A stretch of 64,000 bases of DNA from an uncultured Verrucomicrobiae bacterium. GTDB taxonomy: Bacteria; Chlamydiota; Chlamydiia; Chlamydiales; Rhabdochlamydiaceae. The first letter of the stretch is position 1; every line of letters starts with the position of its first letter. Made by a program: the position numbers and the translations under genes. Below, piece after piece: positions 47,086 to 51,830 of this stretch. Location: assembly GCA_963731265.1 (NCBI GenBank), contig CAVSUE010000001.1, positions 832,001 to 896,000 of the forward strand, written 5' to 3'. The notes beneath the pieces are model-generated. The model was given only the letters and a program-made list of their open reading frames with translations, made no database searches and had not been told where the DNA came from.

Positions 47086-50000
47086 CTACTCACCCCATAT
47101 TTCCTTTTCGAGTCGACCAACCGAGTCGTACTTAATTGTTTTACATGAACCATTGGGTAAGGAAATGTGGGTCAATTGATTGAATGAATTATATTCGTAA
47201 GAACTGACTTCTCCCTCTGCATCGGTGACTATTTTCAGATTGTGCTGATTGTCGTAGTCGTAAGAAGTCTTAAAATTTCGAGGATCTACAATTAGCCTCA
47301 GATCTCCTGTCTTAATCATAGGTAAAGTGAGTCGTGCCTAGGGGGGTTCGAACTTCTTTTAATTGACCGCTTTCATCATAATCATAACTTTTCTGTAACC
47401 CAAATCCATCGGAAATTTCATGAATTTTACCCTTTTCATCGACTTTACGTTCAACAACGTATCCCATTGGGTAAGAGATTTCCTTCAGTTGGCCATGATC
47501 ATCATAATCAAAAGAGGTGGTACCTCCTCGAGTATCTTTGCGGCTCTTTAGTTGACCTGTAATTTTATCGTAATTGAAATAGGTGGCAGGCCCTTTAATC
47601 TGAATCCCTGTATAGATCTGAGCAAAGAGATTATTCTCATCGAATTCTAAGTAAGTGTTTGCATAATTTTGGCTGAGTTGTTGATTGACTCCAAAATACC
47701 AATTCCAAATTGTTCTTTTATTGGGTTCTCTTCTTGCGACTAACTTTCCAGCTAAATCATAAAAGAATCTCCATTCTGCTCCTGCTGAATTTTTCAAATA
47801 GATCGGATTGCCAGCCGGATCATAATGGCATTTAGTAATCCCTTTTTTAGGATCGATGATTTTTGTAGGAAATGGAACATGGACCTGCTCATACTCAAAC
47901 TCCCATATTAACCCTCCCGGATCTTGCCTGTAAATAAGCTTGTCTTTTTCATCGTACTTTAAAATCGATTCTCTTCCTTGATGATCATAGACTTTCATAA
48001 CTCTCTTTTCCAAAGAAAAATCGGCTTGATAACTGATCCCTCCTTCTTTGATCAAAGTAGCACGATTGTAATCATCATAAGCGGCTTCAAACAGTATATT
48101 TTCCAAACGATCGGTTATTTTACTAAGCCGCTGATCTAAATCGTAGGAATAACGGAGATAGGGGCCACTTACGTCGTCCACAGTTTTTAACTGGCCATCA
48201 GGGTGATACGTATAGTACACAGAAGTATTTCCAGGCCCTATAGCTTTGAACAGGCGATTCTCTTCGTACTCAAGAAGGATAGTGGCTCCATTTTGATGAC
48301 AAATGCTAACAAGCTGATCACCTCGATAGCGATATTCGATCGAGAAACCATTTGTATCGAGAGTCCTGATAAGTCTTCCACCTTTATCAAAGTCGACACG
48401 GCCAAAGCGAGGAATATAAAAAGAGAAGGTGCCGTTCAAATTATCTTTTAAGAGCCCTGAATAATCAGGGCTATTAAAGACAGGACAGTTATCTGAGCTA
48501 AGGGCGAAAGGTTGAAAGAAACATTCTGCGTCAGGAGTTCTGACTAAAATGGCTCGACGGGTTTCACAACTTTTATCATCCTGTGAACTAAGAATCACTT
48601 TTTCCAGGGAAATCTCTAGCTCGTAGGGAACTATTCTCCACCCACGTCCTAAAGCTGCTTCCTTTTCAGAAAAAGAATTGTAAAACCGATACAAGGTAAG
48701 CTCTTGATTCCCAGGAACTGGAAAATTCATATCGACATAGCTTTTTTTCACATTACCAGGCTTTCTCGTCCGTGAAATACTTTGAGCAGCGGCCATAAAG
48801 GTTTCACGATTGGTTGGAGATCGGAAAGTCCATGTGAAGTCTTGCTCGGATGGTCTGGATCTCAAAGCTGAAATCGAAAAATCATTGACAAGTGGATCTA
48901 CATAAGTCGCGAAATTCGAGCTATTCAATCTGTAATCAACCCCTCCTGAAGCGGAGAAAGAGTATGTATATGGAACTGCCACCTTTTTTTTCTTTTTATG
49001 TCCCGGAACTTTATGCTTTTCCGTTTTTTCAACCATCCATTCACCGCGACTTTCTGTAGAAGGAGTATATGCGACTGTTTCTATCTTTTTAGGCTGATAA
49101 TTGATGAAAAAAGAAGGATCGAAAGGGATGTTGTTTTCTCTAATCCATTTGACGATAGCAGTAATTTTACCTAGAGTCTTTAACTTCTCTAAGATGGGAT
49201 ACTGCTTTGAAAATTCGTCGAAATGAGCAGTAAAATGTTCAGCAAATTCGCGGCAAGCTGGCACGTCCGAAGGAGAGCCGTTGAATTGTGACTCTGTAAG
49301 CACTTTCATGCGTACATCGCTAAACACCATGCCTTTGTGATCTTCCGCTTCCACAAGAGTAATTTTATCGGGGACAAACCACATACGATGGCCTACCGCC
49401 GTCTGGCTAAAAAACTGATGTGCAGCTAGCCTATTAATCAGACTGGAGTAACCAGGCACATTTGCAGATACGGCTTGCCCCGAAATATTATCTTTGCCAA
49501 GCTCGAGGCATTTGAGCAGTCTATCTGCTTCAAACATGATTTGCCCAAATGAGGTATTTGCAGTTGCCCCGTCATATCTAACTTTCATTTGCCCTGCAAA
49601 AGGAGAAGATTCAGTTCCAATTGAAACACCTGGATCTTGAGGACAAGGTAATCCAATGCTGTAAACAGATCTGACTGCAACAGCTAAGTCATCAAGATCA
49701 ATCGGTGGAAAATACCGATCTTCGGGACCAAAGAGGACAAGCTGCCCTGTGATAGGGTCGAAAGCGGCACCTGTAATATCGGCAAGGTTTAACTGAAGCT
49801 CTGCTGTTTTTGAAAGGCTAACTCCCCCAAAATCTAAATTGGGAGAGGAGATGAAACCTAAGGAAGGGGAAGGTGGAGCGGGATGTGTAATTTCTATCTT
49901 TTCTCTGGGATAACTAATAATGCGGGGATCTATCCCATGAAATTCTAGCATCTGAGATCTCAACTCAGAAGGAAGTGGCAGGAATTTGCTTAAATGGATC

Positions 50001-51830
50001 TTTTCTCCATGAATGAAACCCATCTCTTTCATTCCTTCTACAGCTGTGTAAACACAATTTTTGCTCAGGGTCCATTTAATTTGGGTCATGAGAGCAAGAG
50101 CCGTATCCACTCCAGACGACTTGCAAAGACATTCAAAGGTAGCTGTGTTTGCATTAATGTTTTTTTGGTCATATGACTGCATACCTTCTGGATAATTACC
50201 TTGGAAGAGATTGCGATCGGGAAATTCTAAACAGACATGTCCGAACCAGCCCTGCCCTCCAAACAACCCACCTAGGTCATTGATATGTAACCCTCACTCG
50301 TTCCCATGCTTCAGGACTGACACCCTCCAATCCCAAAGGGTCGATAAAATTTACCGGATTATTCTCGACATAGCAATAGGGATTGACGGTTGAAGGACGA
50401 TCTAACTTGCCAGGACGAGGGTCTTTAGAAATAAATCTGCCGATCTCTGGATCGTAGTAACGATTTCTAAGGTAGATGAGGCCAGTTTCCTCGTCGAATT
50501 GTTCACCACAATACTTATAGACATTTGGGACATTTTGTTCTTCGGAAAGAGAGCCGCCAAATGAATCGTAATTATAAGTATTTAAGACTTTGCCTGAAGA
50601 GCTGACAAGGTTTGAGACATTTCTTCCAAGACTATCGTAAAGATAAAACTGCGTCCTGCCATCAGCAGATTGAGAGATCCGTGAACCTCCGTAGGTATAA
50701 CGGATCGTTTTCTCCCCTTTCCACCAACAGCCCTGCACCTTCTTAAGAAGAACTTGCGTTACTGGCGCTACAAGATCATTAATATACTCAGTACATACAC
50801 CATTGACTGTTTTAGAAATCCGATTCCCATTACCATCATATTCAAAGGCAACTTGATTAGTTTCATCTGAATAAGAGATCAACCGATTGTCAAAATCATA
50901 TTTATAGGTAGCTTTGCGCGCTGGAGAAGATTTTTCAATTAAATTGCCCGCAAGATCGTACTCATAAACTGTGTCACCTGCCTTTCTAAGGCGATTTTCT
51001 TCATCATATTCATAGACGATCTTTCCTTGAGGTGTCGTTTTGCTGCGCCGATTCCCTGCTCCATCGTATGAGAACTCCTCAAAAAATCCGTCCGAATGCT
51101 CTGATTTTACAATTCTATTGAGTTTATCGTAGATATAAATGACATGCGAGTTGACTTCCGAAGAGATTTTTTCAATTTTTGTTCGATTCCCATTTTCATC
51201 ATATGCATATCTAAATTCCTCGATGAGGATCCCGTCTGCCTTTTTGTGAATAACATTTGATATTTTTCGTGTTTTATAATATTGATACTCAGTCGTTATG
51301 CCATTAGGTAATGTTTTCTTCTTGAGAGCATTGCTCAGCTCATCATATTCAAATCTGGTGACACCTGAAGAATCTTTGACAGTTTCTAATCGATTAGAAA
51401 GATCATAGGTATATTCAACTTCAGTTCGGTCTGGATAAACAAGTTTAATGAGATTGCTTTCAGAATCGTAATAGTAGGAGACAGTCTGGTCATCGGGAAA
51501 AGTGACTTTGGTAATTCTGCCAAACTCATCAGGTTCAAAGAGAGTAGTGCCCCGATGATCTTCCATTTTTGTACGTATGCCGCTTAGATCATAGGAATAC
51601 GTAACACTTTTGCTATCAGGGTAATCAATTCTTTCTAGCCGGTTGATTAGGTCGTAGTGAAATTGAGTGACAAATCCTCTCGGATCTGTAATATCTTGTA
51701 CATTCCCATATTTGTCATAAGAATAGGATTTTACGGAAATAGCGTCAGAAGTATTGGGGAATAGCAATAAAACGATCCACAGGAAGTGGAGCATTAGTTT
51801 ATAAGAGTCAGTTAACATAGAGAAACTCAC
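47086..51830 (-). pseudogene. RHS/YD-repeat protein (~1570 aa) with permuted domain order, split by two apparent +1 frameshifts (~50290, ~47314)
   Basis: ORFs 50277-51830, 47312-50266 and 47086-47319 join on removing one base at each junction; YCGEQFDEETGLIYLRNRYYDPEIGRFISKDP..NPY.Y..NNPVNFIDPLGL core; YD repeats at both ends. Confidence 0.8.

What the first reader, a model, noticed from the sequence alone, without database searches (positions are those of the whole stretch)
47086..51830. Circularly permuted RHS protein: toxin-core half first, DUF6531-like half last, cargo in the middle
Seen: after a Sec-type signal peptide (MLHFLWIVLLLFPNTSDA) the protein starts directly with YD repeats and reaches the intact RHS core (RFISKDP...NNPVNFIDPLGL) at ~aa 500. 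It then continues for ~1050 aa and ends with PGN..K.YVD..VPG..LTLYRFYNS...LGRGW plus a long YD run. Established: canonical RHS order is DUF6531-like (GN..L.R.YNS..G.GW) > YD repeats > core DPxGL > C-terminal toxin. Inference: the two halves of the barrel are swapped, so autocleavage after DPLGL would expose a cargo still tethered to the rest of the shell. Export would be Sec-dependent rather than PAAR/T6SS. A second gene stub (53433-53594) has the same signal+YD start, arguing that this order is a family trait. The two +1 frameshifts may be decay or assembly indels.
Basis: partly seen in the sequence, partly recalled or inferred. Interest (0 to 1): 0.85.

Follow-up and report, generated by a model that had tools for sequence, protein, structure and literature searches.

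The report
Circularly permuted, Sec-exported RHS toxin
This is a frame-broken copy of a widespread but apparently undescribed kind of RHS toxin whose protein shell is encoded in rotated order, so the toxin sits in the middle of the chain rather than at its end.

Summary
On the minus strand, 51818..47086 reads colinearly with one 1575-aa protein across three frames, with breaks near 50279-50293 and 47307-47320. An intact 1575-aa paralog lies elsewhere in the same genome. All 12 related loci fetched carry intact ORFs of 1522-1567 aa.

The order is: signal peptide, YD repeats, Rhs core (PxxxxDPxG[F/L]), a variable toxin of about 135 aa, a disordered linker, a conserved head domain of about 350 aa, a DUF6531 plug, then YD repeats. 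Canonical relatives with the same head domain exist in the order head, plug, YD, core, toxin. The two best alignments of the permuted protein abut at residue ~941-946 of one of them. This is therefore a true circular permutation.

The two halves total 1028 aa, about one three-turn cocoon. They are predicted to join through their terminal strands (ipSAE 0.83, best control 0.00). The toxin resembles permuted NlpC/P60 enzymes such as TseH (Z 10.0).

The head domain is not cargo. A small secreted Ig-like protein is a conserved upstream partner. No description was found in eight literature searches.

The parts
51741..51818 (-). Start codon and Sec-type signal peptide (26 aa, predicted cleavage after ..SDA)
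   Evidence: The paralog match begins at 51818. An n/h/c-region signal followed at once by (A/V)(I/V)S.KSYSYD is conserved in the alignment of 27 homologs.
50571..51740 (-). YD-repeat sheet equivalent to the C-terminal half of a canonical RHS shell (protein residues 27-416)
   Evidence: PF05593 E 1.1e-38. It is 77% identical to the paralog. Paralog 33-496 aligns to residues 941-1393 of canonical P0137.
50328..50570 (-). Rhs-associated core (aspartyl autoprotease region) ending in PVNFIDPLGL; DPLGL = 50342..50328
   Evidence: TIGR03696 E 2e-22 at 417-496 of the paralog. P488xxxxD493PxG496 and D466 are invariant in 27 of 27. The motif equals PxxxxDPxG[W/L/F] of RhsA (PMC8765631, passages).
50279..50293 (-). 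First frame break (one-base shift). The core frame stops at 50279-50277. The continuing frame is open from 50293.
   Evidence: No public contig covered this place.
49829..50327 (-). Hypervariable region: permuted NlpC/P60-like His-Cys toxin domain (about 135 aa) plus a disordered Pro/Ser-rich linker
   Evidence: Identity falls from 70-84% to 11-49% straight after DPxG[L/F] and recovers at the head domain. H527 and N591-C592 are invariant. Fold match to TseH 6v98_A: Z 10.0, rmsd 3.4, 124 aligned. The linker has pLDDT about 30.
48767..49828 (-). Conserved 'head' domain of about 350 aa (weakly DUF1598-like), N-terminal in canonical relatives
   Evidence: 2098 cluster representatives at E<=0.001. 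It lies at residue ~60 in 8 canonical proteins ordered head-plug-YD-core. PF07643 gives only 17.7 bits against a cut-off of 25. No solved fold above Z 3.2.
48557..48766 (-). DUF6531 plug domain (KPGNVKK...LTLYRFYNS...LGRGW)
   Evidence: PF20148 at 24.5 bits in the window ORF and E 2.8e-8 in the paralog at 1026-1082.
47321..48556 (-). YD-repeat sheet equivalent to the N-terminal half of a canonical shell, first part
   Evidence: PF05593 E 5.4e-25. Paralog 637-1566 aligns to residues 26-946 of canonical P0137.
47307..47320 (-). Second frame break (one-base shift at a TT)
   Evidence: One contig of run X3 (160 letters, depth 2.4, otherwise identical) lacks one letter at 47314.
47086..47306 (-). 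Last YD repeats and the conserved C-terminus (...YDSVGRLEKEIWGE, stop)
   Evidence: PF05593 E 6.8e-17. The end ...YD.xGRLxxEIWG(Q/K) is conserved. Residues 1567-1575 are predicted to pair with residues 27-34.
52014..52469 (-). Small secreted or anchored Ig-like partner protein (151 aa, ends ..EWDQLYTK), directly upstream
   Evidence: It is 50% identical to the paralog's neighbour. A homolog lies directly upstream in 10 of 12 related loci. The model has pLDDT 85.4 and is a beta-sandwich. No Pfam family.
51827..52006 (-). C-terminal fragment of a second copy of the small protein, carrying a 100-nt perfect-type palindrome (51904-52003)
   Evidence: phmmer E 1.4e-6. Inverted repeat I1.
46610..47077 (+). 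Orphan copy of the small protein, convergent with the RHS end
   Evidence: It is 64% identical to the small protein of locus L038, whose RHS carries a different toxin type.
53433..54120 (-). Remnant of a third cassette: small protein (54120..53623, 165 aa) plus RHS stub (53594..53433, 53 aa, signal + YD start)
   Evidence: The small protein is 57% identical to that of L039. The stub aligns to the N-termini of the L043 and L039 RHS. The stub ends at an 85-nt direct repeat.
52839..53198 (-). Small acidic secreted protein, also present upstream of the paralog
   Evidence: phmmer E 3.1e-17 to L016 2046..2486. Found only in these 2 of 14 loci.

Best explanation
The window holds a copy, broken by two one-base frame changes in this assembly, of a circularly permuted RHS polymorphic toxin. 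A canonical relative reads: signal, head domain, DUF6531 plug, YD shell, Rhs core, toxin. Here the chain is rotated at a YD repeat about 55% along the shell. It reads: signal, second half of the YD shell, Rhs core, toxin, linker, head domain, plug, first half of the YD shell.

Inferred mechanism. The protein is exported by Sec. The mature N-terminal strand pairs with the extreme C-terminal strand, so the two halves close one three-turn cocoon around the ~15 kDa toxin. The aspartyl protease of the core cuts after DPxG[L/F]. This leaves two chains held together as TcB and TcC are. The toxin, a permuted NlpC/P60 His-Cys enzyme and probably a lipid or amide hydrolase, stays tied by a ~45-aa disordered linker to the head domain. 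The head domain most likely sits outside, at the plug end, and could draw the toxin out through the plug. The conserved upstream Ig-like secreted protein is either its immunity protein or an assembly helper.

What is shown: the gene order, its conservation, the permutation point, the variable cassette and the catalytic motifs. What is predicted: the single shell and the toxin fold. What is inferred: cleavage, topology, release and target.
For: Intact forms exist. There is a 1575-aa paralog in the same genome. All 12 fetched loci have intact ORFs of 1522-1567 aa. 22 of 401 genomes sampled from the phylum have a match, mostly in open frames of about 1530-1580 aa.

Domains were placed by models. 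Rhs_assc_core lies at 417-496 and DUF6531 at 1026-1082, with RHS repeats on both sides.

The permutation is shown against canonical P0137 (1552 aa). Paralog 637-1566 aligns to 26-946 (E 1e-77). Paralog 33-496 aligns to 941-1393 (E 4e-46). Both ends of the permuted protein align to the same TYDANGN repeat. Total lengths match: canonical P0137 and P0139 are 1552 and 1537 aa, the permuted forms 1517-1576 aa.

Among the 150 best representatives of the head domain, 72 have the core before it and 8 have it after the YD run. Among the 71 of at least 1400 aa, the counts are 55 and 8.

Both termini are conserved to the residue.

The halves are predicted to bind. ipSAE was 0.83 in 3 of 3 runs, with 0.00 as the best of 3 controls. 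The runs agree in at least 95% of contacts and the partner's pLDDT is at least 77. That mark was reached by 116 of 157 solved complexes and 2 of 215 mismatched pairs. Residues 27-34 touch 1567-1575. Further contacts recur about every 20 residues along 57-275 and 1300-1558, as between neighbouring turns of one spiral.

The sizes fit. The halves are 471 + 557 = 1028 aa, against 305-1350 for the three-turn RhsA cocoon with its ~15 kDa toxin (PMC8765631, passages). The insert between core and head has a median of 179 aa (IQR 166-196, n 72). Canonical tails are 105-159 aa.

The core motif and two Asp residues are invariant in 27 of 27. There is a hypervariable cassette directly after DPxG[L/F]. For the toxin fold, TseH gives Z 10.0, RID 7.0 and YiiX 6.8. 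No VipB or PAAR family match was found in the own genome, which is 96% complete.
Against: The single-shell reading rests on a two-chain prediction cut to 1000 residues, which lost the first ~30 residues of the plug. That prediction resembles solved TcB-TcC and Rhs structures, so the pass may come from memory. It cannot tell an intramolecular shell from a swapped dimer.

The window's own copy is broken twice and may be dead.

No release route for a toxin tied at its C-terminus has been demonstrated. The proline at the place of RhsA's N-terminal cleavage site is replaced by T or V in 5 of 27 homologs, so a second cleavage is not supported.

A subclass has only the ~80-aa core in front of the toxin: 13 of 72 have the core starting at or before residue 80. 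Its shell would be much shorter, which this model does not explain.

The toxin has no Pfam family (0 of 5 subtypes). The head domain has no solved relative.

Across 66 locus pairs the small protein's identity follows the shell, not the toxin. The partial correlation is 0.004.
Confidence: 0.8

Rival explanations
1. Two separate genes: an ordinary short RHS (signal, YD, core, tiny tail) followed by an independent N-terminal RHS fragment. The apparent continuity would be accidental.
For: As assembled, the window has a stop at 50279-50277 and a TTG-started ORF 10 nt later. A few database entries start near DPLGL (P0006, 1088 aa) or are about 1000-1200 aa long.
Against: The paralog and all 12 fetched loci are single ORFs. 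55 of the 71 long representatives have the core in front of the head domain within one protein. The continuing frame is open and homologous from 50293, before the stop of the first frame.
Confidence: 0.03
2. The permuted chain does not close on itself. The N-half of one molecule pairs with the C-half of another, giving swapped dimers or head-to-tail chains of shells. The toxin would then bridge two shells.
For: The two-chain prediction is equally compatible with pairing in trans. The 45-aa disordered linker is long enough to reach a neighbouring shell. TcB and TcC show that shell halves can associate as separate chains (PMC8765631, passages).
Against: Pairing within one chain is favoured by proximity. 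The insert length is tightly kept (IQR 166-196 aa), as expected if it must fit inside one shell and span it. There is no direct evidence either way.
Confidence: 0.15
3. The window copy is a decaying pseudogene and the locus is a graveyard of cassettes. It holds a stub, an orphan small gene and a gene fragment. Only the paralog would be functional in this organism.
For: There are two frame changes. The RHS stub is cut at a direct repeat, and a small-gene fragment carries a palindrome. 0 of 11 other genomes of the same genus had a match, so the cassette is dispensable.
Against: Outside the two breaks the copy is fully colinear, with no further stops over 1575 codons. A near-identical public contig lacks the extra letter at 47314 (depth 2.4, one contig), so at least one break may be an assembly or strain indel. 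The other break was not covered.
Confidence: 0.45

Closest known systems
Canonical Sec-signal RHS proteins carrying the same N-terminal head domain (unnamed representatives P0137, P0139, P0113, P0130, P0141, P0147, P0164, P0173)
   Same: They have the same parts: signal peptide, head domain, DUF6531 plug, YD shell, Rhs core, and a C-terminal tail of about 105-159 aa. Two have the same total length (1552 and 1537 aa). They are 27-33% identical over both blocks.
   Different: The order differs. In them the core and toxin are at the C-terminus. Here the chain is rotated at a YD repeat, equivalent to residue ~941-946 of P0137, so the toxin is internal and fused to the region that follows their signal peptide.
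T6SS Rhs effectors, e.g. Pseudomonas protegens RhsA (PMC8765631, passages read)
   Same: A three-turn YD cocoon of about 1046 residues, a plug (cork) at one end, a core with PxxxxDPxG[W/L/F] and two catalytic Asp at the other, and a ~15 kDa toxin inside.
   Different: There is no PAAR, prePAAR or TMD, and no T6SS sheath family in the genome. It has a Sec signal instead. The order is permuted. After core cleavage the toxin remains tied to the rest. The proline of RhsA's N-terminal cleavage site is not kept in all members.
TcB-TcC (BC) cocoon of Tc toxins
   Same: The shell is built from two polypeptides that pair edge to edge. After core cleavage the N-half here (YD start, core, toxin) would correspond to TcC, and the C-half (plug + YD) to TcB. 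This is an analogy from the RhsA paper's passages and from recalled knowledge of Tc toxins.
   Different: The gene and fusion order is C-then-B, not B-then-C. Pfam reported no beta-propeller above its cut-off. No TcA-like VRP1 match was found, but that control rang nowhere, so it is inconclusive. The shell has three turns by size, not four.
Teneurin YD shell
   Same: A YD shell with a plug and a toxin-like domain that remains covalently attached (RhsA paper passage: the teneurin core is not cleaved).
   Different: PF25023 TEN_YD-shell scores only 25 bits against a cut-off of 50. Teneurins are not permuted. The core catalytic Asp residues are conserved here.
Permuted NlpC/P60 enzymes: TseH, Tox-Act1, YiiX/YaeF, LRAT/PLAAT (PMC12994826, passages read)
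   Same: The toxin domain has His before Cys, an NC motif, and fold matches to TseH (Z 10.0), YiiX (6.8) and PLAAT4 (4.0). The paper reports that permuted members act on lipids and that TseH showed phospholipase activity in one assay.
   Different: There is no sequence-level family match. The substrate is unknown. It is delivered inside an RHS shell rather than as a free T6SS effector.

Membership tests
RHS / YD-repeat polymorphic toxins | Multiple RHS/YD repeats | tested here: met
   PF05593 E 7.1e-82 with 13 stretches. TIGR01643 E 2.1e-56. The window ORFs give E 1.1e-38, 5.4e-25 and 6.8e-17.
RHS / YD-repeat polymorphic toxins | Rhs-associated core with PxxxxDPxG[W/L/F] and two conserved Asp | tested here: met
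   TIGR03696 E 2e-22 at 417-496. P488, D493, P494, G496 and D466 are invariant in 27 of 27. The motif is defined in PMC8765631.
RHS / YD-repeat polymorphic toxins | Order: N-terminal domain, plug, YD shell, core, C-terminal toxin | tested here: not met
   The core lies at 417-497 and the plug at 1016-1085 of 1575 aa. The order is rotated relative to canonical P0137.
RHS / YD-repeat polymorphic toxins | Hypervariable toxin region beginning right after the core motif | tested here: met
   In the trio L016 / window / L038, identity is 70-84% before residue 497, 11-49% over 498-632, and 53-72% from 665. At least five toxin subtypes are present, plus unrelated ones in P0028, P0035 and P0038.
RHS / YD-repeat polymorphic toxins | Cognate immunity gene directly downstream of the toxin | tested here: not met
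   The toxin is internal, and no conserved downstream gene was seen. A conserved small secreted protein lies upstream instead. Its role as immunity protein is untested.
RHS / YD-repeat polymorphic toxins | Closed cocoon that encapsulates the toxin; autoproteolysis | not testable with these tools
   Only a two-chain prediction is available (ipSAE 0.83, best control 0.00). Cleavage needs protein work.
T6SS Rhs effectors | PAAR or VgrG-binding N-terminus and a T6SS in the genome | tested here: not met
   No PAAR in the protein. PF05488 and PF05943 gave 0 matches in the own genome, which is 96% complete; both controls rang.
Tc toxin BC component | TcA partner and TcB beta-propeller gate | tested here: inconclusive
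   PF03538 gave no match, but the control rang in no genome. No propeller family exceeded its cut-off.
Teneurin-type YD shell (PF25023) | Match over the curated cut-off | tested here: not met
   25 bits against a cut-off of 50, over 48 residues only.
Permuted NlpC/P60 (YaeF/YiiX, LRAT, TseH clades) | Catalytic His N-terminal to catalytic Cys (permuted core), papain-like fold | tested here: met
   H527 and N591-C592 are invariant in 27 of 27. 6v98_A gives Z 10.0, rmsd 3.4, 124 aligned. 2if6_B gives Z 6.8. 5xn7_B gives Z 7.0. Sequence-family membership is inconclusive: no Pfam hit in 5 subtypes.
DUF1598 (PF07643) | Match over the curated cut-off | tested here: not met
   17.7 bits against a cut-off of 25, at 741-777. 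One distant relative of the head domain (P0040) is annotated with PF07643.

The most novel reading that the evidence does not exclude
The rotated order is not a neutral rearrangement. It would create a self-contained, secretion-machine-independent delivery device. The toxin is threaded inside a shell closed from two discontinuous halves. It is cut free at its N-terminus only. It stays leashed through the plug opening to an external head domain that binds a target surface and pulls the unfolded lipid-hydrolysing toxin out. The upstream Ig-like protein acts as a periplasmic immunity protein. This would be a third way, beside T6SS spikes and TcA injectors, of emptying an RHS cocoon. It would be the dominant one in the head-domain family, which has at least 2098 clusters.
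Probability: 0.3. Interest if true: 0.88.

Novelty: new variant of a known kind. Interest (0 to 1): 0.78.

Why it matters
RHS, Tc and teneurin shells are always described as one continuous spiral that ends in the core with the toxin at the C-terminus. Here a large natural family builds the same shell from a rotated chain. In this family 72 of the 150 best representatives have the core ahead of the head domain, against 8 in canonical order.

This gives a natural experiment on how the cocoon folds. Its seam can be moved. It also bears on whether the toxin must have a free C-terminus, and on how it leaves the shell, which remains an open question for Rhs effectors (PMC8765631 discusses only models). 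It further shows a polymorphic toxin cassette flanked by conserved sequence on both sides, which changes how such cassettes can be exchanged. Finally, it points to a Sec-dependent RHS system in a lineage without T6SS.

Tried and rejected
The Foldseek search of the cargo model against PDB gave nothing at E<=0.001. The head domain had no VIA match above Z 3.2, and it was only searched as part of a 550-residue model, so a known fold is not excluded. The protein atlas gave no usable hit for the head domain.

The small partner protein matched only generic beta-sandwiches. The best VIA score was Z 6.6, and Foldseek gave nothing at E<=0.001. This is no functional lead.

Pfam found no family for five toxin subtypes or for the small proteins.

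A first regex-based partition of homologs failed for 6 of 12 loci. It was replaced by an alignment-based one. The test of covariation between the small protein and the toxin across 66 pairs was negative after controlling for the shell (partial r 0.004). Only the trio L016 / window / L038 and the orphan copy hint at coupling.

The search for related loci with a single protein found just 1 locus.

Sequencing runs: no run held more than 0.17 of the words, and no RNA holder was listed. The contigs laid did not cover 50280-50443, so the first break could not be checked.

The VRP1 (TcA) search is uninformative because its control rang nowhere.

Earlier findings of this scan: nothing by place, words or sequence.

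Literature searches for a permuted RHS returned no paper describing it.

A programmed frameshift was considered and rejected, because the homologs are single frames at both places.

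
Full report
OBSERVATION

On the minus strand the window has three abutting ORFs.
- 51830..50277 (517 aa): signal peptide, YD repeats and an Rhs core ending ...NNPVNFIDPLGL. It stops 21 codons after the core.
- 50266..47312 (984 aa): DUF6531 at aa 514-559, followed by YD repeats.
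- 47319..47086 (77 aa): more YD repeats.

Pfam confirms RHS repeats in all three ORFs and DUF6531 in the second. The sequence at the junctions shows that the second frame is already open from 50293, before the first frame stops at 50279-50277. The third frame overlaps the stop of the second at 47314-47312. tblastn of an intact relative maps residues 1-508, 511-1500 and 1503-1575 colinearly onto three successive frames.

INTACT COPIES

A search of the window's own genome found a paralog at G000:C1:1388991-1393719 in one open frame. In locus L016 it is a single 1575-aa ORF that ends at the same residue (...EIWGQ).

Models place Rhs_assc_core at 417-496 (E 2e-22) and DUF6531 at 1026-1082 (E 2.8e-8). 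There are 13 RHS-repeat stretches on both sides.

A search of 5.8 billion proteins with residues 497-1025 returned 43 proteins. About 27 clusters are 1517-1576 aa long with the same order. The few that carry names are labelled Chlamydiales or Simkaniaceae MAGs, or 'RHS repeat-associated protein'.

In a sample of 401 genomes of the phylum, 22 have a match, mostly in open frames of about 1530-1580 aa. None of the 11 other genomes of the same genus has one.

I fetched 12 of these loci. All 12 hold an intact ORF of 1522-1567 aa.

IT IS A TRUE CIRCULAR PERMUTATION

I searched the ~350-aa region between the toxin and the plug (residues 665-1015) against 1.84 billion cluster representatives. It found 2098 at E<=0.001 and 961 at E<=1e-10.

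I scored the 150 best with HMMs built from my alignment.
- In 72 the Rhs core lies before this domain.
- In 8 the order is canonical: the domain at residue ~60, then plug, a long YD run, core and a tail of 105-159 aa.
- In 70 no core was detected. Many of these are short, and 18 have the domain twice.
- Among the 71 of at least 1400 aa the split is 55 permuted, 8 canonical and 8 without a core.

Against canonical P0137 (1552 aa) the two best alignments of the paralog are 637-1566 to 26-946 (E 1e-77) and 33-496 to 941-1393 (E 4e-46). They abut. Both the N-terminal SYDKYGN and the C-terminal KYDSLG of the permuted protein align to the same TYDANGN of P0137.

The linker after the toxin aligns to the region just behind P0137's signal peptide. 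This is what is expected if two tandem canonical genes fused and were then trimmed at both ends. That origin is inferred, not shown.

The '~1050 aa continuation' is thus not all cargo. The ~350-aa domain is the ancestral N-terminal head domain.

ONE SHELL FROM TWO HALVES

The halves are 471 aa (27-497) and 557 aa (1019-1575), together 1028 aa. The three-turn cocoon of RhsA spans residues 305-1350 and holds a ~15 kDa toxin (PMC8765631, passages read).

I handed residues 27-497 and 1047-1575 to the complex predictor, each with the 27-row alignment A1. The limit of 1000 residues cost the first ~30 residues of the plug. Results:
- ipSAE 0.83 in each of three runs, with 0.00 as the best of three controls.
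- At least 95% of contacts were shared between runs, and the partner's pLDDT was at least 77.
- That mark was reached by 116 of 157 solved complexes and 2 of 215 mismatched pairs.
- Residues 27-34 touch 1567-1575 (30 with 1571, 31 with 1570, 32 with 1568).
- Further contacts recur about every 20 residues along 57-275 and 1300-1558, the pattern of neighbouring turns of one YD spiral.

Solved TcB-TcC and Rhs structures resemble this, so the pass may come from memory. It shows likeness, not binding, and cannot separate pairing within a chain from pairing between chains.

Independent support comes from conservation. Both termini are kept to the residue in 27 homologs, with signal then (A/V)(I/V)S.KSYSYD at the start and ...YD.xGRLxxEIWG at the end. 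The insert between core and head is tightly sized, with a median of 179 aa and an IQR of 166-196 (n 72).

THE CARGO

Directly after DPxG[L/F], identity between close homologs collapses and then recovers at the head domain. In the trio L016 / window / L038 it is 70-84% before residue 497, 11-49% over 498-632, and 53-72% from 665. This is the signature of a polymorphic toxin cassette, here internal.

More distant members carry unrelated inserts, for example glycine-rich membrane-like segments in P0035 and P0038.

In the group to which the window belongs all inserts share a His...Asn-Cys pattern. H527, N591 and C592 are invariant in 27 of 27.

The AlphaFold model of residues 497-1046 has mean pLDDT 77.9. 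It shows a folded domain (1-135), a disordered linker (136-181, pLDDT about 30) and the folded head domain.

Foldseek found nothing. The exhaustive aligner matched the toxin domain as follows.
- TseH: 6v98_A, Z 10.0, rmsd 3.4, 124 aligned.
- MARTX RID: Z 7.0.
- YiiX: Z 6.8.
- A Bacillus cysteine peptidase: Z 6.3.
- A DUF862 deSUMOylase: Z 6.0.
- PLAAT4: Z 4.0.

These are permuted papain-like NlpC/P60 enzymes. A 2026 paper (PMC12994826, passages read) states that permuted members act on lipids and that TseH showed phospholipase activity in one assay. A lipid or amide hydrolase is therefore the best guess. The substrate is not shown.

CORE, CLEAVAGE AND TOPOLOGY (INFERRED)

The core carries P488xxxxD493PxG496F/L and a second invariant Asp (D466). 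This matches the RhsA consensus and its two catalytic aspartates. Cleavage after G-F/L is therefore likely. It would leave the N-half as one chain and toxin, linker, head, plug and C-half as the other.

A folded 350-aa head plus a 135-aa toxin cannot both fit a shell that holds ~15 kDa. The head is therefore probably outside, at the plug end, and the linker would pass the plug opening.

In RhsA the chain just before the cork also runs into the cocoon, and an exit of the toxin through the plug end has been proposed. The proline of RhsA's N-terminal cleavage site is T or V in 5 of 27 homologs here, so I do not claim a second cut.

EXPORT

The signal peptide is conserved. No PAAR is present in the protein. 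The own genome, 96% complete, gave no match to the T6SS sheath family or to PAAR, and both controls rang. The TcA search is uninformative.

PARTNER GENE AND LOCUS

A signal-bearing protein of 150-185 aa lies directly upstream in 10 of the 12 loci. One locus is cut by its contig end and one has none. Four loci have two copies. Its model (pLDDT 85.4) is a generic beta-sandwich.

The window holds three full copies and one fragment.
- 52469..52014: the resident copy.
- 52006..51827: a fragment, carrying a 100-nt palindrome.
- 46610..47077 on the other strand: 64% identical to the partner of a different toxin type (L038).
- 54120..53623: in front of the RHS stub, 57% identical to the L039 type.

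In the trio with equal shells, partner identity (50, 30, 27%) follows toxin identity (45, 21, 19%). Over all 66 pairs, however, there is no such effect once the shell is controlled for (partial r 0.004). Whether it is an immunity protein or an assembly helper stays open.

STATE OF THE WINDOW COPY

Apart from the two breaks there are no stops. One contig of a public run is identical over 160 letters but lacks one letter at 47314 (depth 2.4). That break may therefore be an assembly or strain difference. The other break was not covered. No RNA evidence exists either way.

NOVELTY

Eight literature searches and passages of three papers gave no description of an RHS with the core and toxin ahead of the plug. 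I could not see the supplements of the 2012 polymorphic-toxin survey (PMC3482391), which may list such architectures. I rate this a new variant of a known kind. It is well supported at the level of gene order and evolution, and predicted at the level of structure and mechanism.

Noticed in passing
window 51904-52003: A 100-nt palindrome with 50-nt arms, 98% complementary and no spacer. It sits inside the fragment of a small-protein gene just upstream of the RHS start and gives the same peptide on both strands (ORFs 51827..52006 - and 51883..52008 +).
   Followed up: partly
window 53360-53444 and 54490-54574: An 85-nt direct repeat (89% identity) brackets the remnant cassette of small protein plus RHS stub. 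The stub ends exactly at the first copy, which suggests truncation by recombination or an insertion scar next to the spermidine-synthase-like gene at 54552..55469.
   Followed up: partly
window 52580-52612 / 52745-52777: A 33-nt inverted repeat (97%) flanks 132 nt that hold a 46-aa ORF (52608..52748). From memory its sequence resembles a fragment of the small 'GxxExxY' proteins. This was not tested.
   Followed up: no
L016 476..1750 and 7880..8320 (G000:C1:1386000-1402000): The paralog's cassette (acidic protein, small protein, RHS) lies between a tyrosyl-tRNA-synthetase-like gene and a duplicate of that gene's first ~67 codons. It looks like an island inserted with a duplication of the target.
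   Followed up: no
L050 2619..7706 (G000:C1:1797000-1809000): A canonical-order 1695-aa RHS in the same genome has its core DPAGF at 1495. It is followed by two paralogous small genes (137 and 132 aa, both starting MDIKK..GYFHDG) that look like an immunity array. The organism thus has both architectures.
   Followed up: partly
L051 1621..8241 (G000:C1:1780000-1791000): Another RHS appears split. N-terminal pieces (105 and 283 aa) are separated from a 1388-aa remainder by a 282-aa ORF on the other strand that looks like a transposase. The transposase reading is from memory and was not tested.
   Followed up: no
proteins P0037, P0038, P0053, P0063, P0068 and others (13 of 72 permuted representatives): A second permuted class has only a signal peptide plus the ~80-aa Rhs core in front of the toxin. 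All YD repeats come after the plug, and Ig-like domains follow at the C-terminus. Its shell would be much shorter than a canonical one.
   Followed up: partly
proteins P0040, P0100, P0135, P0150 and others (18 of the 150 best representatives): These proteins have two copies of the head domain and no Rhs core. The domain therefore also exists outside RHS proteins.
   Followed up: no
L040 2056..2913 (-): In one related locus a 285-aa ORF just downstream of the permuted RHS also matches the small partner protein (E 3.5e-10). Copies can therefore lie on both sides of the toxin gene, as with the orphan copy in the window.
   Followed up: no
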